Shown: one piece after another, positions 7,861-32,913 of the stretch
How positions within the stretch are numbered: position 1 is the stretch's first letter
Layout: each line of letters starts with the position of its first letter
NCBI GenBank assembly: GCA_043228905.1
Contig: JBHGNT010000002.1
Span: 7,378,001-7,442,000 of the forward strand
Direction of reading: 5' to 3'
DNA length: 64,000 bases
Source of the DNA: Azolla caroliniana
Lineage: Eukaryota > Plantae > Polypodiophyta
Position numbers and translations under genes: made by a program
The notes under the pieces: model-generated
Told to the model about the DNA's origin: nothing
Database searches by the model: none
What the model saw: only the letters and a program-made list of their open reading frames with translations

Positions 7861-7909
7861 GATAAATAAATATATATATATATATACATATTTACACATA
7901 TACAAGGAG

Positions 7910-7976
7910 GGCAAGAAAGGATTCGAACCTTGCACCTCCAAGTTAGGAGTCAATTGGCTTACCATTAAGCCATGCT
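7910..7976 (-). promoter_or_regulatory. tRNA-derived Pol III A-box/B-box module in F 5' LTR (copy at 14716-14783 in 3' LTR)
   Basis: Minus strand TGGCTTAATGG..CTCCTAA..GGTTCGAATCC, A-to-B start spacing 43 nt, D-stem GGCT/AGCC and T-stem pairing; acceptor and anticodon stems do not pair. Confidence 0.7.
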
Positions 7977-8381
7977 ATTTAGTTGAAATTATATTTCTAT
8001 CATTGTACTTTTACATGTAAATTCTCATACATGAGAGCTAAAATGAGTGACATGGTTATCATGCATCACATGTAATACATAAGCGCCAAATGGCAAACAT
8101 GCAATTTATGCATGTCTTGTACCCTCACATGCATCATATGCATGAGAGCATCTATAAAAGAGGGAAGGGGGAGGAGAAAAGACACGGGTTTTTTTATGAA
8201 AATTAAGAGGAAGAAATTCGTTATCAAATTGATCGTGTAATCTCAACTTCTCTCTTTCCCAATCTATCTTAAGTACTTTCTCGCCAAAGCTTGTATCGAC
8301 TCTAAATCCTTCTGGTCCAGAACCCCGGCGGTTCCGCCTCACGATCCGCGTGTAGTGACGGATCTTCACGACATAATTAAG

Positions 8382-8398
8382 TGGTGAACCCGACGTGA
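8382..8398 (+). promoter_or_regulatory. Primer-binding site complementary to tRNA-Trp
   Basis: TGGTGAACCCGACGTGA is the reverse complement of TCACGTCGGGTTCACCA, the 3' end of plant cytosolic tRNA-Trp(CCA) as I recall it. Confidence 0.8.
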
Positions 8399-8440
8399 AA
8401 GAGGCGGTAGGAAGGATCAAGTCGAGATTAATACTTGGAG

Positions 8441-10639
8441 ATGGCGTCCTCAAGCAACCAAGCAAGGGAGCTCGAAAGGATGATGCTAATCGTCGAGCAA
8501 ATGATGAGATCTCGGGACAACGACGCAAGCGTGGAGAAGGCTGTCGATCGTGTCGTAGAGCTCGAGGGCCAATTCGATGGAAGGAACGTTACGAAGTTCC
8601 TTGATGCATATAGAAGGGAGATGAATCAGAGGGACGTGTCCGAGGCATGTCAAATCGCAAGCTTCAAGAGAGTTGTCGCCAACAACATCCAAAGACGCGT
8701 CATCGAGCTTCAAGAAGGTAAGACAACATGGTCCGAGTTCGAGAAAACGATACTAGCGGAGTTCGTGACTGAAGACTCAACAAGGATGACTCGACATGCC
8801 CTGATGAAGTGGATAGAGAAGAAGAATAAGAAGAAGAGCGTCTCGAGGGTGTACGACGAATTCGACCAGATGTTTAGTCGTCTCCCCAATACGGACCAAG
8901 TGTTGCTTGAAGAGGACAAGACTTTGTACTTCTTGAAGGCCGTGGACATAAAGGATAGACGGGAGTTGGGGACTCTTCTCGAAGATGATACCCAAGCAAA
9001 TGGGCTCGTAGCGGACTGGATCGCGGTGAAGCGGGCATGCAATAGGCTCGACAAGCGTCGCCAATGGGTTGATGACACCGACTTGACGGGACCGACTACC
9101 ACGGAGAAAGCAAGACCGCCGAAAGTAGCTAAGCCGCTGAGACAAAGTAACGTGGAAGAAAAGAAGATTGATGACGACATCATTGAAGAGCTAGCGAAGA
9201 AGTTCGAGAAGGTCACGCTAGCCAACATGAATCGTCGGGGCCCTAAAGGAAAAGAACCCTTTAGATGTGTGTGGTGCGATAGCATGGACCACATGAGAAG
9301 GGATTGTGCGAGCCTTCGAGAGGCGATTCGACAAAATATCGTATACATAGAGGACAACATGATCTACTCAAGCGAGACTAGAAGACCCCTACGGGTGAAT
9401 TTCGGAAGAGGAGGAATGAAGAAATCTATGGAGGATGCCGATGCGATTCATGTGGATGCGATGCACTATGTTGCGTTGGCCGAAATAAGAGTCGGGAAAG
9501 ACAAGACTGAAGCTGCTAGAGCGGGAGCAAAGTTTTGGACTTCCGTTCTCGAATATGAGAAGAAGGGAAAAGTCACATCGAACGAGGTAGAGCTTGCGGA
9601 CCGAAACGTGCAAAGCATAACCGGGTGGTCGGATCCGGTGGACGACAACACCATACTTGCAGAGGTGATGTGCGACAACCACGAGGTGTTCGTCGAAGAA
9701 AAGAGAAAGAGAATAGAAGAGCAAGGCCCATCAAAGAGACATGAAACAAGGAACGCGAAAAAGAAGGACGATACGGAGATGAGTCGACCTTTACAAACGG
9801 AGGAACGAGAATCAAGCCGAAAAGGGGAGCCAAGCATACGAGTTGAAGAAACGGTTCGGCCCGTGAAGGTTGGTGTCGAAGACCCCACTCGGAGGACAAG
9901 GACTATACCTACCTATAAGCTAAGGTCGGACATAGAGCAGACAACGGACCTAAAGAAGATTCTCGAAGAACGAGTTCTTGATAGCCACGTAACTTTGTCC
10001 TTGAGGGAATTGCTTGGCATTACGAAGAAGGAGTTCCATGACACGATCGTGGACCTTGTAAAGAGAAAGAGACAACAATCGGACGAGGAAGAAGAGAAGC
10101 CGCAAAAAGCAAAAACGAATGCCATAACGATGGCAAGAGACGAAATCGATGAAGATATGGTGGACAACCACTACACTCGACCTCATTGGGCACGAGCGAC
10201 AACGGAGACGCCGGTGAAGATCGGGGAGAAGAAAGAGACCGTGGTAGCCTTGATCGACCACGGCTCGGAGATCAACCTCATGTCAACCGACTTCTACAAA
10301 AAAGGAAGATGGCCAATCAATACAAACCACGGATGGAAGATTCGCGCGGCAACAAAGTCTACGGAGGATTTGTACGAAGCTTGTCCCAATGTCAAAGTCA
10401 CGATCGGGGATGTGGAGATGGATCAACACTTCTTCGTACAAGAATCGGCGTTGCATCCTGTCATCTTAGGGCAACCTTATATCACATCATCTCGGATGGA
10501 GACCAAAGTGTTCGATAATGGAGCAGCCTTCGCACGAATAAAGAGTCTTTACAACCAAAGATCGGTCCAATTCCTAACAGTGCGAGCCAATCATGAAAGG
10601 AATAGAGATAGTCTCGGAGGCGAATCCTCGGATTTTTAG
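8441..10639 (+). CDS. Element F ORF1: Gag + aspartic protease
   Basis: Open ~732-codon frame; zinc knuckle CVWCDSMDHMRRDC; protease ALIDHGSEINLM...VILGQPY. Confidence 0.9.
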   Translation: MASSSNQARELERMMLIVEQMMRSRDNDASVEKAVDRVVELEGQFDGRNVTKFLDAYRREMNQRDVSEACQIASFKRVVANNIQRRVIELQEGKTTWSEFEKTILAEFVTEDSTRMTRHALMKWIEKKNKKKSVSRVYDEFDQMFSRLPNTDQVLLEEDKTLYFLKAVDIKDRRELGTLLEDDTQANGLVADWIAVKRACNRLDKRRQWVDDTDLTGPTTTEKARPPKVAKPLRQSNVEEKKIDDDIIEELAKKFEKVTLANMNRRGPKGKEPFRCVWCDSMDHMRRDCASLREAIRQNIVYIEDNMIYSSETRRPLRVNFGRGGMKKSMEDADAIHVDAMHYVALAEIRVGKDKTEAARAGAKFWTSVLEYEKKGKVTSNEVELADRNVQSITGWSDPVDDNTILAEVMCDNHEVFVEEKRKRIEEQGPSKRHETRNAKKKDDTEMSRPLQTEERESSRKGEPSIRVEETVRPVKVGVEDPTRRTRTIPTYKLRSDIEQTTDLKKILEERVLDSHVTLSLRELLGITKKEFHDTIVDLVKRKRQQSDEEEEKPQKAKTNAITMARDEIDEDMVDNHYTRPHWARATTETPVKIGEKKETVVALIDHGSEINLMSTDFYKKGRWPINTNHGWKIRAATKSTEDLYEACPNVKVTIGDVEMDQHFFVQESALHPVILGQPYITSSRMETKVFDNGAAFARIKSLYNQRSVQFLTVRANHERNRDSLGGESSDF

Positions 10640-10692
10640 AGCGGACTATTGAAGCATGGGGCACAAATAGTCCGAGCAATCACAAGACCCCA
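10630..10692 (+). promoter_or_regulatory. -1 programmed ribosomal frameshift signal
   Basis: G GAT TTT heptamer directly before ORF1 stop; 5-nt spacer; 9-bp stem CGGACTATT/AATAGTCCG; loop TGGGG can pair with CCCCA at 10688-10692; -1 frame open into pol. Confidence 0.8.
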
Positions 10693-10704
10693 CAAGAAAG
10701 AAGA

Positions 10705-13700
10705 GTGCGTGGATTGCAAGGAGAAGCAACATGTGTCACACCTAGTGGCGCATGTAAACTAGTACTACCCGACAGGAAGCACAAGCGTCGGATGCAAGAA
10801 TTCGAGAAGATGCTGAAAGAAGAGAACATTATAGAAGAAGGAGAGTTCGTGACTCATATTATGGAAGAAGCCTCATTTAACGACACCATCGGCGAAATCG
10901 AGGAAGTCATGGACTTGAGCTATCTTCACAACCAATGCGTGATTTCGGTTAACTCCGTCAACATGTACGCTATCATCGATGAATACCGTCGTGGCATCTC
11001 GATGAAGGAAGCTGACATCAACACGAAATATAAAACGGTGGATAAGAAGATCAAGCCAGTTGCGGTTCCACTACCGGAAGATAGCTGGCAAAAGATGAAG
11101 GAAGTCGCTAACGATCCAAGCTTAAGAGATCCGAAGAAGATAGGTCATGTCTTCACCAAAGAGACGAAGGGGAAGCTACGAGTTGGAAAGGAGGGTTTCC
11201 TTCTCCCTGAAGAGGAGCGAATGTTTCGTGATATGCTTGAGAGACATGGGAAGGCTTTCGCATTCTTCCCACGAGAAATCGGATGCGCCGACCTAAAGGT
11301 TATAGAGCCGATGGTGATCTTCACGGTGCCTCATGTGCCTTGGAACTTGAAACCGATACCGGTTCCGAGAGCACACCTTCCGAAGCTGATCGAGCTCTTA
11401 AAGGAGAAGGTGAGTATGGGAATTCTAGAACCATCGAATGCTCCTTATTCCAATAGGTGGTTCACGGTGCCGAAGAAGAATGGATCATTGCGATTCATCC
11501 AAGATCTTCAACCCGTCAACAAGGTGACAATTCGAAATGCCGGAATCGGTCCGAGCGTGGACGAATTTGCCAAAGCGTTTGCGGGCCGGTCCATCTACTC
11601 CATTGGCGATCTCTACTCCGGTTATGACCAATTCCAATTGGCGATCGACAGTCGGGACATTACAACCATGAGGACTCCGATCGGGCTTGTGCGGATGTGT
11701 ACCTTACCCCAAGGTGCAACAAACTCGGTGGCTCATTATGCCATGAATAAAGTCTTGAAGGATTGCATTCCGGACATCACAATGCCATTCTTGGATTATA
11801 TTCCGATAAAAGGATGTTCGGATGAGGAGAAAGATGAATCGAAAGATAAGGAAGGTTGTAGAAAGTTCGTTGCGGATCATATGAAAGATTGCGAGAAGGT
11901 GCTTCAAAGGCTCGAAGATGCGAATTTGACATTTTCGGGAGAAAAATCCGCATTCGGGCAACCGGAGATCTTGGTGGTAGGTCACTTGTGTGGAGCATAC
12001 GGCCGGAAGCCCTCGCCATCCAAAGTGAACGCAATCCAAGACATGAAAGAAGAATGCGAAAACCAAACGGAGGTTCGAAGGTTCCTTGGAGCGTGCGCGT
12101 TTTATCATATATGGATTCCTCACTATGCTCATGTCGCCAAACCGTTATATGGACTACTAAATAAAAGAATAAAGTTCGAATGGCGAGACGAGCACACAGA
12201 GGCGATGCGAAGATTAAAGAAACTACTTCTTGAAGCTCCGGCTCTAAGGAAGGCCGACTATGCCGAAGGGAAACCAATTTACGTGACAGTAGATACGAGC
12301 CCAACCGGAATCGGGTGGGTCATCAATCAAGAAGGTGAAGATAATGCGCGATATGCCGTCCAGTTCGGAGCAAAGGTTCTCAGCGAACGGCAACAAAGAT
12401 ATGCCCAAGTCAAGCGGGAACTTTGGGGTATTGTGTCGGCAGTGAAGACGGACAAAGATTACCTGATCGGGTCAGAAGTGATAATAGAGACAGATTGTCT
12501 CCCAATTCTCGGAATGGTCTTGGGATGTGCGACCCCAGATCTTGCTATACTAAGGTGGATCGCCTACATCAAGTCTTTAAACCCAGAGATCCGTCACATC
12601 GCAGGGAAGAAGAACGCCATGGCTGACATGCTGTCGAGGGCAAGATTTTCAAATGGAAGTAACATGGTTTCGGAAGATGAAGATGTCGCCCTCGACTTCT
12701 TCAAGATGGCTCGATTGTCGGCGGAAGACCAGGACACGCAAACCCTCCACGCCTTCAACGAGAACGAGTACGAAGGAGAATGGTTACTCATCGGTAGATT
12801 CCTAAGAACATTGACGATAGATGCTTCGTTGACAAAGGAGGAGGCCCTACGAATCCGAAAGAAAGCTTACCGATACTTCTTGAAGGGAGGATTCCTTTGG
12901 CGACATCCAAAAAGAAGGACAGGAATACCACGTCGAGTGGTGGTAAAGAAAGAAGAGCAAGAGACGCTGATGACCGAATTCCACGAGAGTGCTTGGGCAG
13001 GTCATAGAGGAACATGGGCGACGTTCGAAAAATTGAAGGAGAAGTACTGGTGGCCAAGCATGTACAAAGATGTACTCCATTTCGTGTCCACATGTGAAAC
13101 TTGCCAAATATATTCAAATATACGTCATCGTGATGAGTTAAAGCCGACATACCCACTCACCATTCACTTCAAATGGATGGTGGATCTGGTCTCGATGCCA
13201 ATGGGAGTGGGACAAATGAAGTACTTAGCGCTGGCAAGGGAAGACTTGACAAATCAAGTGGAAGGACGAGCCTTGACAAATAAGACGACTTCAGCCGTTT
13301 GTAAATTTTTACTTGAAGATGTTGTTTGCCAATATGGATGTGTAGGGAAGATAGTGGCCAACCGAGGGGAGTTGGACGCGCACGAAGCGACGGAGCTCTT
13401 CGAAAGACTAGGCGTGAAGCTCTCCCTCACGACTGCCTACAATCCGGAAGCAAATGGGAAGATCGAGCGAGGGCATGGACCTATCGTTAAAGCCATCGTA
13501 CGGGCATGCAACGGTCGAGTCGGGAATTGGCCACGACTATTACCCTATGCCTTGTGGGCCGATAGAACGACACATAGCTCGGTGACAGGGTATATGCCGA
13601 CGGAGCTTATGTATGGACAAAAGCCGATTATGCCCATCGAAAGGACGATCGCCTCATGGGTAGCGATACCGTGGGAGAACGAGATGAGCCGAGAAGAGTT

Positions 13701-14118
13701 ATTAGCGGCGCGGATAAGGCAACTTGAAAGAAGACCTGAAGATTTAGAAAAAGCGCGAAAGATGATGAAGGCAGCCTGAGTAAAGAACAAAGTTCGGTTC
13801 GACAACACGCATCGACTTCGTCCCAAGAAGATTGAAGAAGGGGATTGGGTTTTGGTTTACGACAGCACCCTTGACAATCAACACAGTACAACAAGGAAGT
13901 TCGCAAGAAGATGGTTCGGGCCGTATGTGGTGACAAGTGCCAACGATAATGCCACATACCACCTTGCGGAACTAGACGGATCAAGGTTGATCGTACCCAT
14001 TGCGGGAAAAAGAGTAAAGATTTTCAAGAAAAGACAAGACAAGGATCCTGACCTCGATTACCTCGACGATGAACATAATAGGCCGGATGAAAATGAAGAC
14101 ATGGAGGAATCTAATTGA
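10705..14118 (+). pseudogene. Element F ORF2: RT-RNase H-integrase (inactivated)
   Basis: KKNGSLRFIQDL, DLYSGYDQ, LPQGATNS, catalytic motif reads FLDY, VDTSP (RH), GHRG..CETC, WMVDL, YNPEANGKIE (IN); TGA at 13777-13779 then frame continues to WFGPY, ending 14118. Confidence 0.92.
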
Positions 14119-15179
14119 TCATCGTAGCCGAAATCTCACTTCTTCTCTTCTTGGCACATACCGGAGGACGTGCGGTTTGGTGGGGGTGGATGTCGTGAAG
14201 ATTTTCGGCAATAGTGTGAAAATCCCATAAAATGTACGAAATCGAGTATGAATCACGTAGTACAATAATTGTGAAGATAACTTTTTAAATAGATTTAATA
14301 TCTAAGCACAAAATGATGGAGGTTTCGAATGCACTTTATTACACGAGAAACAGACAACTAAATGTCAAGATATGAGGGTATAAAGTTTGTAAAAGGAAAG
14401 GAGAAATTTGTGAGATATCCCACATAGGCACGACAAATACAGCTCTCATCATATATAAGGTGGAGCAAAAGATATTATCTTTGTGTCTATGTGTGGAGCA
14501 TAGAGAGTTCAAGGTAACTTGAACTAAGAGTGGAGGTGGGCTAACTACTCGTAAAGGGTTTTGGCCAACCAAAACCGGACCGGCGATGGAGCCGGTGATC
14601 CGACGGCATCTGGCACCGGTATCCGGCGAGGCACCGGGGCACCGGTAACCGACGGCATCCGGCGACTAGATAAATAAATATATAAATATATATACATATT
14701 TACATATACAAGGAGGGCAAGAAAGGATTCAAACCTTGCACCTCCAAGTTAGGAGTCAATTGGCTTACCATTAAGCCATGCTATTTAGTTGAAATTATAT
14801 TTCTATCATTGTACTTTTACATGTAAATTCTCATACATGAGAGCTAAAATGAGTGACGTGGTTATCATGCACCACATGTAATACATAAGCGCCAAATGGC
14901 AAACATGCAATTTATGCATGTCTTGTACCCTCACATGCATCATATGCATGAGAGCATCTATAAAAGAGGGAAGGGGGAGGAGAAAAGACACGGTTTTTTT
15001 TATGAAAATTAAGAGGAAGAAATTCGTTATCAAATTGATCGTGTAATCTCAACTTCTCTCTTTCCCAATCTATCTTAAGTACTTTCTCGCCAAAGCTTGT
15101 ATCGACTCTAAATCCTTCTGGTCCAGAACCCCGGCGGTTCTGCCTCACGATCCGCGCGTAGTGACGGATCTTTACGACA

Positions 15180-16234
15180 CCGAATCCAGTGGTACTTCTG
15201 TCGGATATGTTTCGTCCGAGAATGGTAGGCCGCATTCTTTGCAAGGTGGATGGCACTTTGACTGTCGCAGTAGAGCCGATATTCGTCCTATTGGATCCCT
15301 AGCTCTCCTATGAATTCCTTCATCCAGATTATCTCCTTGCCAACTTCCACAGCTGCCATGTACTCCACCTCTGTGGTTGACAACGCAACCGTCTTTTGCA
15401 GCCTCAACTGCCATGATACTGCTCCCCCTGCATAAGTCATGACATATCCAAATGTAGACCGGCTGGTATCCGCATTAGCCGACATGTCTGAATCTATGAA
15501 ATCGTCAAGTTGGGGATTACCGGAGCCGAACCGGAGGCACATACTTGAGGTGCCTTTCAGATACCAGAGTATCACTTGACCGTGTTCCAGTGCTCTTTTC
15601 GGGGATTGCTCATGAACCGGCTCACCACTCCGATTGCATATCTGATATCCGGTCGGGTACATACCATCGCGTACATCAAGCTTCCGACGGCAGAGGCATA
15701 TGGAATCTTCATCATATCCGTCTTCTCCGCCTTTGTCCTCAGGCTTTGTTTTCCGGATAGCTTGTAGTTTGTCGGAAGTGTCGATCCGACCGGTTTTGCC
15801 TTTGACATGTTGAACCGTTGAAGCACCTTTGTCACGTACTTCTCCTTTGACAACCACAACAACTTCTTCGACCGGTCCTAGATGATGTGCATTCCCAATA
15901 TCTGTCTTGTCGGACCCAAGTCTTTCATTGAGAAAGTCTGGTTTAGAGCCTTCTTCAGCATCTGAATCTTGCCTTGGTCTCGTTTGACGATCAACATATC
16001 ATCCACATATAGGAGAAGTATCAGGAAATCTCCTCCGTCAAATTTCTTCACATTTACCCTTGCTAGGGACAACTGCTTTCCTTCCGGCCCGGTGTTGCTC
16101 AACGTGACAACTAGCGTATCCGAACTATCCATGAGGGAACCAAGCAGGAGTAATGCGAGTACCTCATCGGCGAGAGGTACTTCCAACAAGGTTTCCTAGT
16201 GGATCAATCCCTGGAAGGCATTCATGTGCTCTGC
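15180..16234 (-). pseudogene. Copia B remnant: gag fused directly to RT C-half and RNase H
   Basis: EHMNAFQG..LLLLGSL..KQLSLARV joined to NVKKFDGGDFLILLLYVDDMLIV; YASAVGSLMYAMVCTRPDI; ALSTTEVEY; KHIRQKYHWIR. Confidence 0.88.
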
Positions 16235-16482
16235 TGTCGTGATGTGGCGTGCTCGAGAGTGGGAAAAACCGGCAAAAGGGGGGAGTCAAAAATGTGCATG
16301 TGCAATGTGTGTGCACACAAAGCGATTAATTGTGCATATGCAAAATAAAAAGGAAAAGAAAGGGTAGAAAGGAGGTATAGAAGCTCATGCAAAAAGTAAG
16401 AGAGAGGAGAGATAAAAGATAGAGGGGAGACAGGCTATGAATTTATAGAGATAGAATTATATATTATATAAGAGAGAGTTAA

Positions 16483-16540
16483 TGGGCTAGTGGATAGTCA
16501 CATTGACTTCTAGCTAGAGTTGCATGGTTCAAATCTAGTC
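16483..16540 (+). promoter_or_regulatory. tRNA(Arg)-like A-box/B-box module in the U3 of solo LTR D
   Basis: TGGGCTAGTGGATAG..ATTGACTTCTAG..GGTTCAAATCT, 43-nt A-to-B spacing; aligns with the module in F. Confidence 0.6.
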
Positions 16541-17452
16541 TTACAATGCAGCATGATTTAAGGAATTTTATTCCTTTTTCATTGAAGACAAAATTGGCGA
16601 CCCCCCTTCCTTTTTGTCTATAAAAGGAGGTCAAGGGAGGCTCATTCGGGAGGACGTTTTGGGAGGAGGAGACTATCGCCAATTTTCCTTCAGAGCTCTT
16701 CATCTTCTTATTCACCACTTCTCTTCATCTCATATCCCTTCATCCCCCCCATCACCACATGCTCGTCTTTTTTGCGTCAGCACTCGAAGTGCTCGTGAGC
16801 CCAAACTTCGTTGGTTCGACGTTGCTCCGCCCCGTTCGTCGTTGCGAGCCTGTGTGCTCGCCGTTCGGGTGGTCGTGGTTTGTTGGGATTGGCATTTTGG
16901 TGGTGCTCGTGTGTTCATCTTCGTCGTGTTTGGATTTGCTTTTGTCTCTAAGGGCATTTAGTATTTTTGTTTTGATTGAGCTTGTGGTTAACTATAAGTT
17001 GCCATTGTAAACAAAACCCTATTTTATAAAGGGTCCCCTTGTGTTGGAATCGAACAAGTATTTATCTCTTTGGTCGATATCATTCGTGTTTCTTTCTCTC
17101 CTTCTTTCTTTATTTGTGTCTTCCTTGTACGTTCGGTCGTCTTATGACGAGGGAGCGTTTCAGACGTGCCCATGCACCTCACCTCCTCATAAAGACATAC
17201 AAGCATTTGTGCGTGTGTTTGTGTCTTTCTTGTACATTCGGCCGTCTTGTGACGAGGGACCGTTCAGGCTTGCCCATGCACCTCTCTTCCTCATAAAGGC
17301 GTACGAGCATTTTGTGTGTGTGTTTGTGTCTTTCTTGTACGTTCAGCCATCTTGTGACGAGGGACTGTTCGGGCTTGCCCATGCACCTCTCCTCCTCATA
17401 AAGGCGTACGAGCATTTGTGCGTGTGTTTGTGTCTTCCTTGTACGTTCGGCC

Positions 17453-17623
17453 TGTCGAATACATGTGTATAATGGACGTATTCACACTATCCCGTTTTGG
17501 CCATTTATGTAATTAGCATAAAGGGTAGTTGCCCTAAGTCGGTCACTATATATAGTGACCTTGTAACCTTTTTGTAAGGTTGGGTGTTGTATTATTGATA
17601 TATGGAATAAGAAGTATTTTTGT

Positions 17624-17665
<42 letters not shown>

Positions 17666-20600
17666 AACGACCTCCAAACTGTCATACGCAGGTATTCAGA
17701 ACACAATCGAATGCTACTTGATCTTCCGCACAGACGACTTTGTCTACAACATCTGGTATCAGAGCCTGCACAGTAGTCGGTCCTTCAATCCGCTGTCGGC
17801 CGTCGTCTCAGCATTCGGTTTCCTGCGTCATTCGAAGAAGAGAGAAGAAGAAGAAAAACGAGGCTTGCATCTCTTCGCGTTAGATCCTCTTCGCTTGGGG
17901 TAAGCCAGCCGGTTGTACTCCGTTCCCTGTGATCGCAACGCTCGAGGTGAAATCCCCTTGTGCAACATTGACACGATCGTGCTCCACTCGGTTAAACGGC
18001 ATCCGAAGAGGTCAACAAACGCCGCTCGTTGTAACCACTCGGTGCAGATCGGTCTCAAGACAACAACCCCAATTCGCGCTTCATCCGGCTGATCGACATT
18101 CGGGAGGATCAGTTGGATCTGTCTCTCTCGTCGCTGCAGCCACCCGAAGCAGAATCGGTCCAGATAATCGGTTTCAATAATCGGTATTCGGCATATATAT
18201 CCGAAGCGAACCGGGCTCACTCCGACTCGGCAACATTCGGGAAGACCAGTCGGTTCTGTCCCTCAAGTTACCGGAGTCAATTCGAGCAAGTTCCGAAGCC
18301 GAACCGACTCGGGTTCAAATCCGACTAGAACGATATCGGGTGAGCCAACCGGCTGCACTCCAACAAGGTTCGTAGTCAACTCCGAACCGAGCTTCGTCAA
18401 CCGAAACCGAATTTGATGGCATCAACATCCGGCTCGTCAGAAATGAGTCTACGAAAGTTCGATGGATCGAACTTCAACTTCTGGAAGGAGCAAATGCAGG
18501 ACTATCTCATAGTCAAGGGGCAAATCGATCCCATCGAAAATGAAGAACCTCCAGAAGGATACAAACCAATTGAGTGGCAGAAGCTGGACAGAATTGTCCG
18601 CGCCACGATTCGGATGCACCTATCGGAATCGGTATACTTTACGGTGCAATCGTGTACGACAGCATTCGAACTGTGGAAAACACTGTCGGACACTTACGAA
18701 AAGAAGGTCGCCGCAACGAAGATGTTTCTGATCCGGCGCCTCTACAACTTGCGGATGAAAGAATCCGATTCGGTTCAAGCACACCTCAATGAGTACGAAA
18801 GCATAAGCTCCCAAATCTCGTCACAGGGGACGGCAATCGAGGATGAACTCAGAGCAATGATACTCATGAGCAGCCTTCCCTCATCATGGGAAACTTTCGT
18901 CACAACCGTGTGCAACGCGTCAACCACGGCTGTTAAATACTCCGAAGTCACGAGCGCAATCCTGACCGAAGCAGCTCGGAGAAAGTCTTTCGCCAAAGAC
19001 TCAACAGACGACGCTTATGTAGTACAAGGTTCGACAGACCGATCGAACATACGAGGAAGAGATTCCTCACGGCCGCCGAACAATCAGCGAAGACGGAGCC
19101 AGTCACGGGATAACCGAATCTGCAACTATTGCAAGAAACCCGGACACATCAAAGCCGACTGCCGCGCACTCAAGAACAAGAACAACAAGAAGAGTGGCCG
19201 GCATGAGGAGATCAATTACGTCAGCTTCTCAGCTGATGTGCTACCAGACGACCCGAATATACTATCAATCGAAAATCCAGTCGGATCAGAAGTTCTGCTC
19301 ACGACTGAAGAATCGAGCACATGGCTCTTAGATTCGGGCGCGTCATTTCACGTGACTCCTCATCGATCCCAATTTCGGCAATATACGATCCGTCACTCCG
19401 ACTCAGTTCGGGTCGGCAACTCGCAACACTGTGACATCATTGGAATCGGCACAGTAGAGCTCAACCTTGCAGGTGGCTCTACACTTGTACTCCACAATGT
19501 CCGACATGTACCCGAGCTCTCAAGGCCATTGATCTCAGTCGGACAACTAGATGAAGACGGCATTCGTGCCGGTTTTTCTTCGGGAGGGTGGACACTCCAC
19601 AGGGGGAACCTCCTGCTTGCTAGAGGACCCAAGATACACTCACTGTATCCGTTACATGTTACGCTCAGAGAGGGTAACCTGTTTTTGGTGGATATTCCTG
19701 TGTCATCACTATGGCACAGAAGATTAGGACACCTCAGCAAGGCCGGCATCACGCACCTATCTAGAGCCGGATACATCCCTAAACTCTCCTTCTCCGACCA
19801 TCAATTCTGCGAGCATTGCCAGTATGGCAAACAAGCAGCCGCATCACACCCGACATCAGCACCAAGAGAAACGAGACCTCTCGATTTGGTCCACTCGGAC
19901 GTCTGTGGCCCAATGCCGCATCAGTCTCTTGGTGGTGCCTCTTACTTCGTCAGTTTTATTGACGATTCGACTCGAAAGGTGTGGGCTTATCCAATTCGCA
20001 CCAAAGATCGTGTCTTCTCGATCTTCACCGATTGGCTCGCTATGGTGGAAAATCAAACCGACCGAAAGCTGAAATGCTTTCGGACAGACAATGGGGGAGA
20101 GTTTAAATCCGAAGAATTCGTCAAATTCTGCCGACAACACGGCATCCGACGTGAACTTACGGCACCACACAGTCCGGAGCAAAACGGGATTGCAGAACGA
20201 ATGAATCGGACAATCCAAGAACGGACAGTTTCCATGCTCCAACACTCCGGACTGTCGGATGGCTTCTGGGCAGAGGCTCTACTCACGGCAGTACACATAA
20301 TCAATATGTCGCCAAGTAGACCTCTAGGACTTCAAATTCCTCAGGAACTATGGATCGGCAGTAAGCCGAATTACGACAAGCTGAGGATCTTCGGATGCGA
20401 GGCGTACGCCCTCATTCCGAAAGATGATCGCCGAAAACTTGCACCTCGGTCCAGGAAATGCATTTTCCTCGGATATGGATCCGACGGCGAAATGGGATAC
20501 CGACTCTGGGACCCCGAACGCAGACAAATCGTTCGAAGTTCGGACGTTGTGTTCAACGAGTCGGCTATGAATCCATCAGTCGAAAAACTGATCGAAGTCC

Positions 20601-22791
20601 GAAGGGTAACATTTTCCGATGTGCCGACCCTTCAAGAAGGCCCCGCTCTCAACACACGGTCAGCTTCACGGGTAGCTGAACCTTACACTACCGACTCGGA
20701 CAACCCCGACTCGGCACAGCAGAACAATCCGCTTTCGGACCATCCGACCACGATACCCGATGCGACCAGTCCAATCATACCTCGACGATCCGAGAGACTG
20801 TCGCAACCTCCGGAGAGGTATTCTCCTGGAATTTTCTTCACCGACGCCGGCAAACCGACGTCTTACGCAGAAGCATCGACATCTGTCGATTCCGCCACCT
20901 GGCATCTGGCGATGGAGTCGGAAATGCACTCCATTCGGGCAAACAAGACTTGGGATCTGGTCGAATTACCTAGGAACCGACGTGCTCTTCCTTGCAAGTG
21001 GGTTTATCGACTAAAAGAGACGTCTGATTCGACCACCCCAAAGTACAAGGCCAGATTAGTTGCGAAGGGCTTCCGACAAGAATATGGCGTCGACTTCGAC
21101 GAGATTTTTTCACCAGTGGTGAAAATGACAACCCTTCGTTTTCTACTCGGCGTAGTGGCAGCCGACAACTTGGAGCTGATTCAGCTAGATGTCAAAACAG
21201 CATTCCTCCATGGTGATCTTGACGAGGAAATTTATATGGAGCAGCCAAAAGGCTTCGTGGCAACCGGCCAAGAACATCTAGTCTGCCGACTCAGGAAGAG
21301 TCTATACGGCCTCAAACAGGCACCGCGACAATGGTACAAGAAGTTCGACGACTTCATCCAATCGCTCGGCTTCTCAAAAAGCGATGAGGACCATTGTCTC
21401 TTTACCAACACAGCTCAAGATGGATCACCCATCTTCCTCATCATTTACGTGGACGACATGCTAATTTCTGGACGCCACTCGGGCGAACTTGCCGATCTCA
21501 TTCGGCAACTGCGGTTGAAGTTTGCCATGAAGGACCTCGGTCCGGCACGACACATCCTTGGCATGAAGATTAGTCGGCATCGCGATAAACGACATCTTTT
21601 CTTGTCTCAGACCGACTATATCGGACGTGTCTTGGAACGCTTCAACATGCAATCAGCCAAATCTGCTTCAACCCCGCTCCCCACGAATCTTCGGCTCTCT
21701 CAGCGAGACTGCCCGACATCCGGTCCGGAGGGGGAAGATATGAAGTCGGTACCGTATGCACCGGCAGTCGGCTCCCTTATGTACCTGATGGTCGCGACAC
21801 GGCCTGATATCTCTCATGCCGTAGGAGTCGTTAGCAGATTTATGCACAATCCTGGCCGATCGCATTGGAACGCAGTCAAGCATGTGTTCAGATATCTGGC
21901 TGGCACAAAAGACCACGGCATTCTTTTCGGTCCGAACCGAACCTCAGGCGTAGTCGGTTACACCGACTCGGATTTCGCCGGCTGTATAGACAGTCGGAAA
22001 TCAACAACCGGATACTGCTTCAAATTCGGCAATGGAGCAATCTCGTGGAAGTCGAAACTTCAGGAGTGCACAGCGACCTCAACGACCGAAGCAGAATATG
22101 TAGCTGCGTCCGACGCAGCAAAAGAAGCTTTGTGGCTCGGTCGGCTGGCGCACACGTTTCGACAAGTCGACCATGACTCGGCCCCAGTTGTCTACAGCGA
22201 CAGTCAAGGTGCTGTTGCCTTGTCAAAAAATCCGGTTCACCACAACGCCTCCAAACATATCGACGTTCGATATCACTTCGTTCGGGACTGCGTCATCTCA
22301 GGGAAAATCGGTCTAGAGAAAATATCCACAACCGACAATGTCGCAGATGGAATGACCAAGTGTCTCTCGGCAGACCGCTTTCGGTCTCTTCGGCATCAGA
22401 TGGGCGTAACGACAAACCAGTCCGGTTAGAGCCGGACACAGCGCAGGATGGTTTCCGACAACCGACATCAGTTCCTTAATGATCGGCTTCAACTGTTCCG
22501 ACCCGACCAGTTCGGTCTTCTGCCTTCGGACCCTACCGACTCGAACAAAGCTGATATGTCCGAGAACCTAAGTCTATACCTGTAATCTTAGATAACCCAT
22601 GTATACGCCCATTACGGGGGAGTGTCGAATACATGTGTATAATGGACGTATTCACACTATCCCGTTTTGGCCATTTATGTAATTAGCATAAAGGGTAGTT
22701 GCCCTAAGTCGGTCACTATATATAGTGACCTTGTAACCTTTTTGTAAGGTTGGGTGTTGTATTATTGATATATGGAATAAGAAGTATTTTT

Positions 22792-22837
<46 letters not shown>

Positions 22838-22923
22838 AACGACCTCCAAACTGTCATACGCAGGTATTCAGAACACAATCGAATGCTACTTGATCTTCCG
22901 CACAGACGACTTTGTCTACAACA
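17453..22923 (+). mobile_element. Intact, very young Ty1/copia element G
   Basis: LTRs 17453-17751 and 22623-22923 differ only at the TG/CT microsatellite; TSD CGGCC; PBS-Met 17754-17765; PPT just before 22623. Confidence 0.97.
18416..22429 (+). CDS. Copia G gag-pol polyprotein (Gag, PR, IN, RT, RH), uninterrupted
   Basis: CNYCKKPGHIKADC; WLLDSGAS; LWHRRLGH; VHSDVCGP, RTDNGGEF, QNGIAE; YKARLVAKG, QLDVKTAFL, YVDD; DSDFAG, KHIDVRYHF. Confidence 0.97.
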   Translation: MASTSGSSEMSLRKFDGSNFNFWKEQMQDYLIVKGQIDPIENEEPPEGYKPIEWQKLDRIVRATIRMHLSESVYFTVQSCTTAFELWKTLSDTYEKKVAATKMFLIRRLYNLRMKESDSVQAHLNEYESISSQISSQGTAIEDELRAMILMSSLPSSWETFVTTVCNASTTAVKYSEVTSAILTEAARRKSFAKDSTDDAYVVQGSTDRSNIRGRDSSRPPNNQRRRSQSRDNRICNYCKKPGHIKADCRALKNKNNKKSGRHEEINYVSFSADVLPDDPNILSIENPVGSEVLLTTEESSTWLLDSGASFHVTPHRSQFRQYTIRHSDSVRVGNSQHCDIIGIGTVELNLAGGSTLVLHNVRHVPELSRPLISVGQLDEDGIRAGFSSGGWTLHRGNLLLARGPKIHSLYPLHVTLREGNLFLVDIPVSSLWHRRLGHLSKAGITHLSRAGYIPKLSFSDHQFCEHCQYGKQAAASHPTSAPRETRPLDLVHSDVCGPMPHQSLGGASYFVSFIDDSTRKVWAYPIRTKDRVFSIFTDWLAMVENQTDRKLKCFRTDNGGEFKSEEFVKFCRQHGIRRELTAPHSPEQNGIAERMNRTIQERTVSMLQHSGLSDGFWAEALLTAVHIINMSPSRPLGLQIPQELWIGSKPNYDKLRIFGCEAYALIPKDDRRKLAPRSRKCIFLGYGSDGEMGYRLWDPERRQIVRSSDVVFNESAMNPSVEKLIEVRRVTFSDVPTLQEGPALNTRSASRVAEPYTTDSDNPDSAQQNNPLSDHPTTIPDATSPIIPRRSERLSQPPERYSPGIFFTDAGKPTSYAEASTSVDSATWHLAMESEMHSIRANKTWDLVELPRNRRALPCKWVYRLKETSDSTTPKYKARLVAKGFRQEYGVDFDEIFSPVVKMTTLRFLLGVVAADNLELIQLDVKTAFLHGDLDEEIYMEQPKGFVATGQEHLVCRLRKSLYGLKQAPRQWYKKFDDFIQSLGFSKSDEDHCLFTNTAQDGSPIFLIIYVDDMLISGRHSGELADLIRQLRLKFAMKDLGPARHILGMKISRHRDKRHLFLSQTDYIGRVLERFNMQSAKSASTPLPTNLRLSQRDCPTSGPEGEDMKSVPYAPAVGSLMYLMVATRPDISHAVGVVSRFMHNPGRSHWNAVKHVFRYLAGTKDHGILFGPNRTSGVVGYTDSDFAGCIDSRKSTTGYCFKFGNGAISWKSKLQECTATSTTEAEYVAASDAAKEALWLGRLAHTFRQVDHDSAPVVYSDSQGAVALSKNPVHHNASKHIDVRYHFVRDCVISGKIGLEKISTTDNVADGMTKCLSADRFRSLRHQMGVTTNQSG

Positions 22924-23702
22924 CGGCCGTCTTGTGACGAGGGAGCGTTTAGAGCGTGCCCATGCACCTCTCCTCCTCATAAAGACGTACGAGCATTTGT
23001 GTGTGTTGTGTCTTCCTCGTACGTTCGGCCGTCTTGTGACGAGGGACCGTTTCGAGCGTGCCCATGCACCTCTCCTCCTCATAAAGGCGTACGAACATTT
23101 TGTGCGTGTGTTTGTGTCTTCCTTGTATGTTCGATCATCTCGTGACGAGGGAGCGTTCGGGCTTGCCCATGCACCTCTCCTCCTCATAAAGGCGTACGAG
23201 CATTTTGTGTGTGTGTGTTTGTGTCTTCCTTGTACGTCTGGCCATCTTGTGATGAGAGAGCGTTTCGGGCGTGCCCATGCACCTCTCCTCCTCATAAAGG
23301 TGTACGAGCATTTGTGTGTGTGTTTTGTGTCTTCCTCGTACATTTGACGTCTTGTGATGAGGGAGCGTTCGGGCGTGCCCATGCACCTCTCCTCCTCATA
23401 AAGACGTACGTACATTCGTGTTTGTGTTATCGTCCCCTTGTGCATTCATCTTGCGTGCTCATCTTGCTTGTACCCGTTTGGTCACTTGGCTCGTGCGGTG
23501 ATCTCGAAAGGTCGACGAGTCGTGATCAAGGAGAGCCACCGGCCTCACAAAACAAAGGGCAACGAGACCTTGCTCGGGAAGGGGTCGGGAAGTAGTATTG
23601 TCATAAAGCAAACCTCGGGTCTTCTCTATCCCTTGAGTACTCCCTAGTCCAAGACCCCCGTGGTCCTGCCCAAGTAACACACGTGCGTGAAACTTTGTGA
23701 CA

Positions 23703-24060: not shown

Positions 24061-24261
24061 ATGTGTTGTTTGCTCTGATACCAGTTTGTGGAGGATAGCG
24101 CGGAATATAGCTCGGCCACAACCGAGTCTTGAATCACTTCGTTTAAGGATCAAACACAGAAATGGGAATAGAGATAAATACTCGTACACACACGAGTCGA
24201 TAGAGAGGACACATGATGTTTGCGTCGAAAACCCTAATAGGGAAAAACCACAGGAACCCAC

Positions 24262-24350
24262 TGTTGTATGCGAGGAAGGTCGTCAATGCGGAAGATCGAG
24301 AAGCATTCGATCCCTGTTTCTTCCCTGTGTATGATGGAATGTAGGTCGTT

Positions 24351-24381
<31 letters not shown>

Positions 24382-29435: not shown

Positions 29436-29466
<31 letters not shown>

Positions 29467-29638
29467 CACAAAAGACTCTTTTATTTCACAAAGCAACAAT
29501 ACAACAGCCAACCTTACAAAAAGGTTACAAGGTCACTATATATAGTGACTGACTTAGGGCAACTACCCTTTATGCTAATTACATAAATGGCCAAAACGGG
29601 ATAGTGTGAATACGTCCATTATACACATGTATTCGACA
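24262..29638 (-). mobile_element. Ty1/copia element E (sister of G), inserted in the 5' LTR of B
   Basis: 292-bp LTRs 24262-24553 and 29347-29638 (2 substitutions seen); TSD CCCAC; PBS-Met 29333-29344; PPT from 24554. Confidence 0.97.
24747..28760 (-). pseudogene. Copia E gag-pol with one premature stop in RT
   Basis: Near-identical to the G protein; CGA>TGA at 25887-25889 splits it into the 958-aa and 326-aa ORFs. Confidence 0.95.
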
Positions 29639-29782
29639 CCCACATGCTCCGAACTATCACTATATGAGAAAGGTACAATCAGAGACTCGGAGGCAACGAC
29701 CTCGAGCTTTGTTTCTTCGCCAAGCGGCGGTTACAACAGAAACCGTTCTGTATATGCTCTCTCACACTCTTCCTCTCTCTCT

Positions 29783-31462
29783 CACACGAGGATTGGTAGT
29801 GAATCTAGGGAAAACGAAAGTCCTTATCTTCCACACATCGGCCCAAGTTAGAGCTAAGTGTCACCTAACTATCTCCCATAGCCCAGTCGAGGTGGTTGGA
29901 TCGTACGTATATCTCGGAGTCACTTTTAGTGCCCGCTCAGGTAAATTTTCGATGACACAGGCAGCGAAGGATAGACTCACGAGAGGACATGCATCCCTCT
30001 CACTCCTAGAGAGACAATGCCACCAAGCACACTTTCAAGAGCCACGGACTAAAGGGTGGCTCTTTGACTCATTAGTGACCCCCTCCCTCATGTATGCATC
30101 AGCGGTTTGGGCTCCAGGATTACCATCCTTCATGTGGACGCAATTAGAGAGACCATTGGTGATGATGCTATCACGCCAACTCCGAAGCAAATCGACTGTA
30201 CCACATGACATTATTAGGGCCGAGTTCACGTTACCCCCAATGCTAGTAGAGGCACTTTTTCAACTTGTAGTCTTTATTGATAAGATACATAGCCAACCAC
30301 ATGATAGAATATCTCATCAAGCCTTTAAGGCCTCTCGATCATTGTATGAGTCCGGCTATACTAGCTCATGGTATGGCATGATGGTGACTTGGCTTCTTGC
30401 GAATGGTCTAGACATTAATAACCTACCTCCCCTTAGGTACAACCACACGAGTGATAACACCTTAACCTCTCATGAGAACCGCAATAAAGTAATATGCCAA
30501 GAAATATGGCAAATTTACACTCGGTGTAAATGGATCACCCCACTAGAGCCACTCCCATCTAAAATGTCGTACTATAAGAAACACTTCATGCACTTCTCTG
30601 AGTTAGGTTTTATCACACGGCCAAAATATCTAGATGTATTCTTACCACATGCACTAAGGGTTGCCATTGGACAACTTAGAATATCGTCTCACCAACTTGA
30701 GATTGAAAATGGCCGCACTAGTGGAGTCCCTAGGGAGGAAAGGATATGTAGGTTATGTCACATAGAGATAGAGGATGAGTACCACTTTACATGCAAGTGT
30801 CCAACCTATGCCGAGATAAGGGCAAAATACCAAGACATACTTGGTCCGTCTCCCACCCTCCCCAAACTATTAGATACTCTAGATATAAAGAAATTAGGCA
30901 AATACATTCTAGAGCTAAAACAACACAGAGAGAATAAATTACAAAATGTTGACAATAATGTTGCTAATGATCACGAACATGTAACAAATGCAGTTTTTCA
31001 GGAACCTGAGGAGACAACGAATGCCGACACACTTGCACCACTCGGCCTTTCCATTGATGAGGCAGAAAACCAGAGAAGAACCAGACGTCCTCAGGTGTCG
31101 GGTTTCAAAACAACTCAACGTGATGTGGAAGCAATATTGAAAATAAGGGAACGTGAGCTACACCGCCTAGAAGCCATGGCTAGGGCACTCTCTACATTGG
31201 AACCCACATCAAGACCCTTTGACCCCCCACTTCTTTTCGAGAGGCTTGGGTGGAAATAAAATTAGGCTTAGTGTATAGTCACTTTCGAGTATACTACATA
31301 TTGTACACTACTAGAACTCTTTTAGTTTAAGTTCTATTTTTTTTTACTTAATTTTATTTTTAGTTATGATGACTGGATAAATACTCTATTGTTGTAAACC
31401 AATTGTCTCATGGGCCAAATTTGGCCTTAGAAGACGTTAATACATCTTTCTTTCTTTCTTTC
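29783..31462 (+). mobile_element. 5'-truncated LINE-2 (RTE-X-like C-terminus) inserted in the 5' LTR of B
   Basis: Open frame GLVVNLGKTKV..YVYLG..LFDSLVTPSLMY..SHQLEIENGR..ERICRLC..EDEYHF..CPTY to stop at 31259; 3' UTR; (CTTT)n tail; LTR B resumes at ATGCCACAG. Confidence 0.9.
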
Positions 31463-31766
31463 TCTATGCCACAGTTATACACATACAACAATATGACTAC
31501 AACCCACGTAAGTGATTGCCCTAAGCCATATTTATACTTATATGAACTTAGGGCTATTTACAAATATAGCCTCAATGGGCTTATTCAAAACATATTTACA
31601 AATATGTCTTCTCTTCCGGTTCTCACCGGGTCCATCCGATCTGGTTTTCGGATCTCTTCCAATTCTCACCGAGTCCATCCAATCCGGTTTTCGGAACTCT
31701 TCCGGTTCACACCGGATCCTCTTCATCCATAACCGGATCCCATCCGGAGGGACCGATTTCCCAACA

Positions 31767-32530
31767 GCTCAAACCGATGGCCAAACCGAAAGAGTCAACC
31801 AAATCCTCGAGCAATACCTCTAGTGTACAGTCAGCTACCAACAAGATGATTGGGTAGACTTCCTTGTCATGGCAGAATTTGCCTACAAAAATAGTATCCA
31901 TGCCTCAACTAAGGTTTCCCCATTCTTTGCAAACTACGGTTTCCACCCTCATTTCAGCATTTCCATTCCGGAGACTTCTGTGAATCCGTCGGCCGAGAGG
32001 CGTGCCCACACCTTACAAGATGTCCATCATGACCTCTCCCTAGAGCTCCGTGTCGCTGGCAAACAATATAAAGCTCACGTTGACCAACATCACTTGGTCG
32101 CTCCGACCTTCGCAGTCGGTGACATGGTTTGGCTACTACGTCGCCACATTGTAACCGCCTATCCCTACGCGAAGCTCGACTACAGAAAGCTAGGCCCTTT
32201 CCGTATCCTCGAGCACGTTAACCCAGTCGCCTTCCGGTTAGCGCTTCCCCCCACATTTCGGCTTCAGAATGTTTTCCACGTCTCTCTCCTCGAACCCTAC
32301 CATCCTTCTCACATTTCGGGACGACAACCTCCGTCACCGCCGCCCGTGGAATTATCAAAAGGTGAGGAGTACGAGGTTGACCGGATCCTTGACTCCCGCT
32401 TGCGTCGCCGAAGACTTCAATACTTGGTCTTATGGAAAGGTTACCCTCTTTCGGATGCCACATAGGAACCAGTTACACATTTACAAAATGCGTCGAAGGC
32501 AATTCACGCTTTTCATCAATGATACCCTCA
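31767..32530 (+). pseudogene. Element A integrase C-half, GPY/F motif and chromodomain
   Basis: QTDGQTERVNQILEQYL, KLGPFRI, FHVSLLEPY, EEYEVDRILDSR..YLVLWKGY..*EP. Confidence 0.92.
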
Positions 32531-32599
32531 TATACCAACCGTGGGTGTTAAGAGGCGGCCTTAGAGAGAGGATAATGTCATAGACATATGCCATGGAGG

Positions 32600-32660
32600 A
32601 AGGTAGGGATTGAACCCAAGACCTCATGGTCTCTATTGGACAACCCTACCAATTGGAAGT
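32600..32660 (-). promoter_or_regulatory. tRNA-like module in the U3 of element A 3' LTR
   Basis: Minus strand CTTCCAATTGGTAGGG...GAGGTCTTGGGTTCAATCCCTAC; good variable loop and T-arm, degenerate A-box, 43-nt spacing. Confidence 0.55.
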
Positions 32661-32913
32661 TTCTAGCTTGCAAACATTCTTTATATTCTCTATTACATGT
32701 ATCCTCGTGCATTCTCCATTGCATGCATACTCTATTTCGAGCTGGCTTACATAGCCCTACCGTCTTGTATAAATACTCAGGTGCACCTTGATTCTAATCA
32801 AGGTGAACAACACCAATTACAGATTCTATAAGTTGAGTTCTTGTTCTTTTCCTCTCTCTTGTGTTCTAGTCTTGTCTTCTCTTTGCTCTATTATACTTGT
32901 CCATGACAGAAAA

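What the first reader, a model, noticed from the sequence alone, without database searches (positions are those of the whole stretch)
7910..32660. tRNA-derived Pol III promoter modules in the U3 of three different LTR families
Seen: F (7910-7976, 14716-14783, antisense), D (16483-16540, sense) and A (32600-32660, antisense) each carry a tRNA-shaped A-box/B-box module with the same 43-nt spacing, about 80-180 bp upstream of the LTR TATA box. The F and D modules align (TGGCTTAATGG-TAAGCCAATTGACTCCTAACTTGGAGGTGCAAGGTTCGAATCC vs TGGGCTAGTGGATAGTCACATTGACTTCTAGCTA-GAGTTGCATGGTTCAAATCT), with CCT/TCT (both Arg) at the anticodon position, yet point in opposite directions. The F module is in both LTRs, so it replicated with the element. 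Known: Cassandra TRIMs carry 5S-derived Pol III promoters in LTRs, and TFIIIC-bound B-boxes act as chromatin barriers in yeasts and mammals. Inference: these retrotransposons recurrently captured tRNA/SINE heads as insulators, Pol III promoters or tRNA-fragment decoys. I am not aware of this being described for these lineages.
Basis: partly seen in the sequence, partly recalled or inferred. Interest (0 to 1): 0.82.

Follow-up and report, generated by a model that had tools for sequence, protein, structure and literature searches.

The report
Retrotransposons keep tRNA-gene promoters in LTRs
Many families of full-length jumping genes in a plant that is likely a fern keep the two control boxes of a tRNA gene at a fixed place just before their own promoter while the rest of the tRNA has worn away, so they likely use the host's tRNA-gene machinery as a built-in DNA switch or shield, which is untested.

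Summary
The modules are real and reach beyond this window. F and D carry A and B boxes at tRNA-gene spacing (3 window matches, 0.03 expected). Most F and D copies appear to carry them. The window's A copy has lost half its A box, which relatives keep.

In 69 loci of related Gypsy elements, near-perfect modules number 12 in 48.8 kb of LTR, 0 in 246 kb of coding DNA and 0 in 30 shuffles. Between related LTRs, fixed box positions differ at 5/77 and an unsearched AGGT at 1/28, against 46/119 for the anticodon arm. No cloverleaf or anticodon is kept. Selection therefore appears to act on DNA boxes, likely a TFIIIC site 155-197 bp upstream of the Pol II TATA, usually back to back with it.

Corrections: F and D are one Phygy-like lineage and probably share one captured unit. 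Modules are patchy (14 of 44 loci). Binding and function are untested.

Closest known: Helenus (non-autonomous TRIMs only). The scan noted similar LTR modules in fungal-like genomes.

The parts
7219..15179 (+). Element F: full-length non-chromovirus Gypsy (Phygy-like), 4-bp TSD CCGG/CCGA, inserted in a Copia RNase H region
   Evidence: LTR pair differs at 19 of 962 aligned bases
7219..8373 (+). F 5' LTR
7920..7972 (-). F module, antisense: A box 7962-7972, AGGT 7934-7937, B box 7920-7929; 0 mismatches to consensus
8152..8160 (+). Pol II TATA box of F 5' LTR, 180 bp from the module, with 5 RY (CATGCA-type) hexamers between
8382..8399 (+). Primer-binding site of F (isotype likely tRNA-Trp; isotype recalled, from no call)
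   Evidence: the same PBS occurs in many related loci
8432..13779 (+). F gag(-protease) ORF 8432-10639 and pol ORF 10612-13779 (RT, RNase H, integrase); a stop precedes the integrase tail
14191..15179 (+). F 3' LTR
14726..14778 (-). F module in the 3' LTR; invariant B-box C changed to T
16235..23702 (+). D solo LTR (same lineage as F; TSD CTGC/CCGC), split by a Copia element at 17453-22923
   Evidence: 72% identical over 955 columns to the LTR of L014
16483..16535 (+). D module, sense; AT-rich/TATA-like tract upstream, T4 at 16566-16569, Pol II TATA at 16618
32576..32908 (+). 3' LTR of A, a Tcn1-like chromovirus (chromodomain just upstream)
32607..32660 (-). A module, antisense; B box intact, 5' half of the A box missing in this copy; TATA at 32767
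2445..2652 (+). A 5' LTR remnant; lacks the module
6448..7110 (+). C LTR, same lineage as F and D (flank ACGT at its 3' end); no module, nor in 2 of 2 C-like LTRs found in the loci

Best explanation
These are tRNA-derived type 2 Pol III promoters, kept as A and B boxes at fixed spacing in the U3 of full-length Gypsy retrotransposons, that likely bind host TFIIIC and likely act on the DNA as a chromatin-opening or boundary element for the element's own Pol II promoter. Shown: box conservation, spacing, position, loss of the cloverleaf, an AT-rich upstream tract. Inferred: one tRNA-Arg-like gene or SINE head entered the U3 of an ancestor of the Phygy-like lineage in antisense, was inherited, lost in many families, duplicated in L027/L029 and inverted or re-captured in the D group; Tcn1-like family A took up a different unit. 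Inferred: TFIIIC would recruit TFIIIB to the AT-rich tract that lies between the module and the TATA box, giving a divergent Pol III/Pol II pair about one nucleosome repeat apart. That would keep the LTR promoter accessible, or block read-through and silencing from the nested repeats these elements insert into. Any short Pol III RNA would be a by-product.
For:: modules with at most 1 mismatch number 12 in 48.8 kb of LTR segments, 0 in 246 kb coding, 2 in 55 kb other DNA and 0 in 30 shuffles; spacing is 34 in 10 of 15 pairs over a 20-60 scan., not circular: of 24 exact B boxes in LTR segments, 19 have YGG 34-35 nt upstream and 16 have AGGT at 44-47, against 0 and 1 of 24 in coding DNA (Fisher 7e-9 and 8e-6). 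In 7 chosen pairs of related modules, differences are: fixed box positions 5/77, loose box positions 30/70, AGGT (not in the search pattern) 1/28, anticodon arm 46/119, positions 62-72 53/77; stems pair at null level (acceptor 44/119, D 34/68, anticodon 39/85); the TATA-nearest antisense module ends 155-197 bp before the TATA in 11 of 11 Phygy-like LTRs where a TATA was located (1 more not located). AT share 77-82% at -40 to -10 against 57% for LTRs; TATA-like word in 11 of 17 (shuffle 5.5, p 0.003, pattern chosen after looking). Both orientations occur, and Tcn1 elements are predicted to self-prime (PMC6317226, passages), which fits a DNA-level role. Nucleosome phasing, barrier and roadblock effects of Pol III complexes are established in yeast (PMC4228148, Background).
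Against: No binding, chromatin or RNA data (no RNA holder listed). Only 14 of 44 loci with an LTR segment show a module, and whole branches lack it, so it is dispensable. Damaged or lost B boxes occur in L032, L044, L045, L056/57 and F's own 3' LTR. A/B conservation is partly by selection of hits. Counts include near-duplicate loci, and related modules are not independent. The loci are short-read assemblies of repeats and may be chimeric between LTR and pol. CAA is rare (2 of 17) and T4 terminators are not above composition (9 of 17, shuffle 9.2). [quoted passage not shown] Pol III complexes can also repress nearby Pol II promoters.
Confidence: 0.5

Rival explanations
1. The selected product is a short Pol III RNA (antisense, decoy or miRNA-like) made from U3, as with the foamy-virus U3 cassettes.
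For: Upstream AT/TATA tract, and T4 within 40 nt of the B box in 9 of 17 modules (LTR background 0.22-0.23, p 0.005-0.008). Pol III miRNA cassette in the U3 of bovine foamy virus (PMC7693620, passages).
Against: Predicted transcripts run 82-410 nt with no shared fold; 15 of 19 have z above -2. The stable ones are F (from its GC-rich and TA repeats), L008a and D. Sequence after the B box is at background (29%). T4 is not above a composition shuffle.
Confidence: 0.2
2. Passive relics or repeated fresh insertions of tRNA-derived SINE heads; the boxes were selected in the SINE, not in the LTR.
For: Patchy presence; decayed copies; an A-type unit occurs outside a recognisable LTR in L024; Kojima proposes SINE insertion as the origin of TRIMp3.
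Against: Position-specific conservation between LTRs that are homologous by their flanks; the same place and orientation across deep pol branches; no shared SINE body or tail after the B box; no match in window 33001-64000.
Confidence: 0.17
3. The antisense unit in the 3' U3 of the genomic RNA pairs with the primer tRNA and helps minus-strand transfer, as reported for HIV-1 U3-R.
For: Most modules are antisense, so the RNA would be complementary to conserved tRNA loops. [quoted passage not shown]
Against: The primer end read from F's PBS matches module positions 59-73 at only 3-8 of 15 in 10 modules. It has A62, implying U52, whereas the modules have G/A52. Sense modules (D group) cannot pair. 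Tcn1 elements are predicted not to use a tRNA primer, yet A has a module.
Confidence: 0.08
4. Pol III makes the element's genomic RNA from the module, as in Cassandra/TRIMp3.
For: D-group modules are sense and lie in the LTR, like Helenus.
Against: Most modules are antisense; D has T4 31 nt after the B box, before the TATA; the elements are 7-8 kb, code for gag-pol and keep a Pol II TATA. Kojima argues that autonomous elements must use Pol II.
Confidence: 0.02

Closest known systems
Helenus / TRIMp3 (Kojima 2024, PMC10886601; parts 1-5 of 6 read and supplement searched)
   Same: tRNA-derived sequence in LTRs with conserved A and B boxes, no functional tRNA, no match to the PBS; one plant family (Selaginella). 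The paper also notes that 'not a few LTRs' in Repbase contain tRNA pieces, without analysing the non-TRIM ones.
   Different: Helenus are non-coding TRIMs of 311-1263 bp whose boxes are proposed to drive the genomic RNA. Here the carriers are 7-8 kb gag-pol elements with a Pol II TATA, and the unit is mostly antisense and upstream of that TATA.
Cassandra TRIM (as described in PMC10886601)
   Same: Pol III promoter inside a plant LTR
   Different: 5S-derived type 1 promoter, non-autonomous, makes the element's RNA
Foamy virus U3 Pol III miRNA cassettes (PMC7693620, passages)
   Same: Pol III unit in the U3 of an autonomous LTR element that uses Pol II for its genome
   Different: There the product is a structured pri-miRNA; here no shared RNA structure was found
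tDNA/ETC extra-transcriptional elements of yeast (PMC4228148, abstract and Background)
   Same: TFIIIC sites acting on neighbouring Pol II transcription and chromatin without needing an RNA product
   Different: Host chromosomal sites, not carried by a mobile element; ETC sites lack TFIIIB and Pol III, whereas these modules keep an A box and an AT-rich upstream tract
HIV-1 U3-R tRNA-Lys3-like sequence (title seen in a reference list; details recalled)
   Same: tRNA-gene-like stretch in U3
   Different: It matches the virus's own primer; these modules do not match F's primer end
Phygy clade, non-chromovirus Ty3/gypsy (Neumann 2019, PMC6317226, passages)
   Same: No chromodomain, compact internal region, NCGN target preference
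   Different: Defined from Physcomitrella only; no LTR Pol III module in the passages seen; placement against reference Phygy proteins not tested

Membership tests
Helenus (TRIMp3) | tRNA-derived sequence with conserved A and B boxes in the LTR | tested here: met
Helenus (TRIMp3) | Short non-autonomous TRIM with no coding capacity | tested here: not met
   F is 7961 bp with gag and pol; relatives likewise
Helenus (TRIMp3) | Boxes placed to drive the genomic RNA by Pol III | tested here: not met
   mostly antisense; the sense D unit is followed by T4 before the TATA
Type 2 Pol III promoter | A box and B box at tRNA-gene spacing | tested here: met
   spacing 34 in 10 of 15 pairs; window A copy incomplete
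Type 2 Pol III promoter (plant) | AT-rich/TATA upstream, CAA near the start, T-run terminator | tested here: inconclusive
   AT tract and TATA-like words present; CAA 2 of 17; T4 9 of 17, not above composition (plant figures in PMC11700998, passages)
Type 2 Pol III promoter | TFIIIC binding and Pol III transcription | not testable with these tools
   no ChIP data; no RNA holder listed
tRNA gene | Cloverleaf with paired stems and a defined anticodon | tested here: not met
tRNA-derived SINE | Head followed by shared body, tail and TSD; free dispersed copies | tested here: inconclusive
   no shared body after the B box in F/D-type units; one A-type unit outside a recognisable LTR; no genome-wide search possible
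Phygy clade | NCGN target preference and no chromodomain | tested here: met
   target sites of F, D and C fit NCGN with 4-bp duplications, one mismatch each in F and D; no chromo hit in the two F ORFs scanned (the integrase tail after 13779 was not scanned)
Phygy clade | Phylogenetic placement with reference Phygy RT/RH/INT | not tested
   no reference sequences held
Tcn1 chromovirus (element A) | Chromodomain at the integrase end; placement in the Tcn1 clade | tested here: inconclusive
   Chromo and Tf2-like SH3 domains present; clade label recalled from resemblance, not treed
Chromatin barrier / insulator | Blocks silencing spread or read-through in an assay | not testable with these tools
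   needs a reporter

The most novel reading that the evidence does not exclude
Autonomous LTR retrotransposons of seed-free plants have, in at least two Gypsy lineages and by at least three separate captures, turned tRNA genes into portable TFIIIC/TFIIIB platforms set back to back with their Pol II promoter. Each new copy would carry its own chromatin boundary, and the genome would hold thousands of mobile TFIIIC sites.
Probability: 0.35. Interest if true: 0.85.

Novelty: new variant of a known kind. Interest (0 to 1): 0.66.

Why it matters
Pol III promoters in LTRs were described for short non-coding TRIMs, where they are thought to make the element's RNA; Kojima 2024 expects autonomous elements to rely on Pol II. 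Here intact-looking Pol III boxes are selectively kept in coding elements in an arrangement that cannot make the genomic RNA. That points to a product-independent use of TFIIIC by a parasite. It would give a testable anti-silencing or boundary mechanism in plants, with natural controls: sister families with and without the module, and in both orientations. High-copy carriers might also titrate TFIIIC or shape chromatin across large fern genomes.

Tried and rejected
No whole genome is held, so no genome-wide family test was possible.

tRNA detection failed: ARAGORN 0 in the window and 0 in 49 loci; Rfam no tRNA hit on the whole window or on the three modules alone.

blastn against phages: the F module's top two rows are tRNA-Arg-TCT, but at E 3; D gave no match; A matched only 22 nt of T arm. 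Among 6 phage tRNAs, Arg-TCT scores best for F, D, L032 and L042 but not for A. The Arg origin is therefore likely, not shown; no plant tRNA set was on hand.

Viral contigs held no relative of F pol. No RNA holder listed.

Read laying cannot give per-position conservation for F and D: only 40 of 438 rows were shown. For A, no variant of 6% or more is listed inside the B box, but only 5 rows lie in or beside the module before 32660, so power is low.

The careful tree did not finish; the quick tree was used (35 rows; loci covering under 300 of 450 residues or without a scored LTR were left out).

Cloverleaf, conserved anticodon and shared transcript fold were tested and rejected. Primer pairing was tested against F's PBS and is weak.

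A landing-pad role (lead from earlier notes): no insertion sits just upstream of any of the four window modules; collapsed contigs cannot test it.

The Tcn1 lineage could not be surveyed across loci because the one metagenome scan went to F. The HIV papers were not held.
Full report
SETTING. Bases 1-33,000 are a nest of LTR retroelements; the rest holds host genes. The best single-domain matches of the GDSL lipase ORF are ferns (Adiantum 58%, Ceratopteris 53%; seed plants and mosses 47% or less), so the host is likely a fern. F (7219-15179) is a full Gypsy element with gag-pol, a PBS at 8382 and a 4-bp TSD. D (16235-23702) is a solo LTR split by a Copia. C (about 6448-7110) is a related LTR. 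The target sites of all three fit NCGN, the preference Neumann et al. give for Phygy (PMC6317226, passages). A has a chromodomain and resembles Tcn1 (label recalled).

OBSERVATION. A scan for A box + B box found F twice (0 and 1 mismatch), D (1) and A (3), all at G18-G52 spacing 34. Block shuffles gave no hit with 0-1 mismatch but 3.5 per 64 kb with 3. F and D are therefore beyond chance, and the window's A copy alone is not. The refined pattern gives 3 matches against 0.03 expected. Distances to the TATA are 180, 83 and 107 bp, as reported. The units are not tRNA-shaped by ARAGORN or Rfam. The nearest annotated tRNA for F is Arg-TCT, weakly (E 3).

FAMILY-WIDE? Contigs of four public runs were laid on 14640-16720 (depth is crude and is no copy number). 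The F module bin holds 321k against 421-540k in the next three bins (X1), 73k against 102-148k (X4), 103k against 137-175k (X5) and 4.8k against 4.3-14k in a run with another organism label (X19). The bin lies beside a skipped repeat, which likely lowers it. The D module bins hold 50k and 72k against 43-73k around them (X1), but are almost uncovered in X19. For A, module bins peak at 70k, 30k, 20k and 0.3k, against 149k, 152k, 51k and 3.8k just past the TATA. Only part of the A-related copies carry this U3. In all four runs, contigs leave the window's sequence at about 32655 and run on into the missing 5' half of an A box. The window's 3' LTR is thus a deleted copy, and its 5' LTR lacks the unit. 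An A-type unit with a full A box also lies in L024, outside a recognisable LTR (79% over 68 nt).

LINEAGE-WIDE. F's pol fetched 69 metagenome loci at 64-92% identity (best 80 of 195 stretches). None holds the window's LTRs at high identity over their length, so they likely come from other plants, whose identity I did not establish. LTR segments were cut from PPT and PBS: 54 segments of 150 nt or more from 44 loci, 48.8 kb. Some are partial and some include flank. With at most 1 mismatch there are 12 modules in these, 0 in 246 kb of coding DNA, 2 in 55 kb of other DNA and 0 in 30 dinucleotide shuffles. With at most 2 mismatches the counts are 18, 2, 5 and 0.17. At up to 3 mismatches, 16 of 54 segments (14 of 44 loci) have a hit. 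On the quick pol tree antisense modules occur on both sides of the midpoint root (L050/53, L056/57; L020, L027/29, L067/68; F, L008). Sense modules mark the D group (L014, L042/43, and damaged in L032, L044, L045). Several whole branches have none (L005/06/22/23/25, L017/18, L013/24/64, L045/58/59, L065/69/70), nor does the C type. L027 and L029 carry two antisense units plus a different sense unit behind the TATA.

WHAT IS KEPT. Among 17 modules, pairwise identity is 81% in the B box, 63% in the A box, 60% at 44-51 and 35% in the anticodon arm; the flanks give 34% and 29%. A, G, G, T at 44-47 are present in 16, 17, 16 and 15 of 17, though they were not in the search pattern. In 7 pairs I chose as related, differences fall at 5/77 fixed box positions (4 of them in the weak L057), 30/70 loose box positions, 1/28 AGGT positions and 46/119 anticodon-arm positions (Fisher 2e-7 and 2e-4). 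Starting from the B box alone, 19 of 24 LTR boxes have YGG at the right distance against 0 of 24 coding boxes. Stems pair at 37-50%, equal to column shuffles, and the anticodon position takes many values. This pattern is expected of a protein-binding DNA site, not of a folded RNA or a neutral relic. Caveats: hits were chosen by their boxes, modules are related by descent, and collapsed contigs may be chimeric.

ANATOMY. In the antisense class the order on the + strand is B box, A box, AT-rich tract, RY-type CATGCA repeats (2-8), Pol II TATA, with 155-197 bp from module to TATA. AT share peaks at 77-82% at -40 to -10, like the A/T-rich 50 nt upstream of plant tRNA genes (PMC11700998, passages). 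CAA is rare. T4 follows within 40 nt in 9 of 17. Predicted transcripts share no length or fold.

MECHANISM. Most likely TFIIIC binds the boxes and places TFIIIB in the AT tract, next to the Pol II promoter. In yeast such complexes phase nucleosomes, act as barriers and block read-through (PMC4228148). That this happens here, and that it helps the element, is inference. Pol III synthesis of the genomic RNA is ruled against by orientation, T runs and element length. Primer pairing fits poorly. A functional short RNA and passive SINE relics remain possible.

PRIOR WORK. Helenus (PMC10886601) is the closest: same kind of unit, but in non-coding TRIMs. The paper mentions other Repbase LTRs with tRNA pieces without analysing them, so Repbase entries I cannot see may already show some. 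Foamy viruses have a Pol III cassette in U3. Ten searches listed no paper on conserved Pol III boxes in LTRs of autonomous plant elements. Most hits were seen as listings only; PMC3286476 (passages) concerns a tRNA pair at a PBS. The library lacks most subscription journals, and the Neumann supplements were not read. Earlier scan notes report LTR-borne tRNA-like promoters in fungal-like genomes, none for this genome among the notes shown; I did not check them.

VERDICT. Real, selected, lineage-wide but patchy; a new variant of a known kind with untested function. Interest 0.66.

Noticed in passing
L027:3674-3726, L029:7001-7053 and L029:266-318: A third, unrelated sense A/B-box unit lies about 130 bp downstream of the TATA in LTRs that also carry two antisense units; likely a separate capture.
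   Followed up: partly
window 7973-8151 and related LTRs: Clusters of 2-8 RY-type hexamers (CATGCA/TGCATG) sit between antisense module and TATA; there are none in the D group. RY as a B3-factor site is recalled.
   Followed up: partly
L024:3080-3153: A-type unit with a full A box outside a recognisable LTR, preceded by a second A-box copy; possible free SINE-like source of A's module.
   Followed up: partly
window 2445-2731: A's 5' LTR lacks its 3' part and is followed by 67 bp matching the integrase-end region 32277-32342 (91%); a rearranged 5' end.
   Followed up: no
window 17453-22923 and 24262-29639: Two Copia copies 97% identical, in opposite orientation and 1.3 kb apart, with LTR pairs about 99% alike; one ORF is intact over 1361 codons.
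   Followed up: no
window about 29780-31450 and 674-1534: Insert in element B's LTR with a 549-codon open frame without Pfam hit and a Cys/His motif like the 3' end of a LINE (recalled); a 74-77% copy lies inverted near the window start.
   Followed up: no
window 17113-17452 and 22924-23447: Array of about 105-bp tandem repeats inside D's LTR, also present in L043 and L045.
   Followed up: no
L002, L011, L017, L018: LTR ends (U5) are shared between elements on different pol branches, e.g. F and L017/L018 83-88% over 70 nt; LTR swapping or assembly chimeras.
   Followed up: partly
modules: 10 of 17 B boxes have A57, the form without a CpG; this could be decay or escape from CG methylation.
   Followed up: no
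window 36899-37907, 48045-49532, 56544-56984, 60012-61395: hAT transposase remnant, GDSL lipase, TPD1-like gene and PAS-domain exons.
   Followed up: partly
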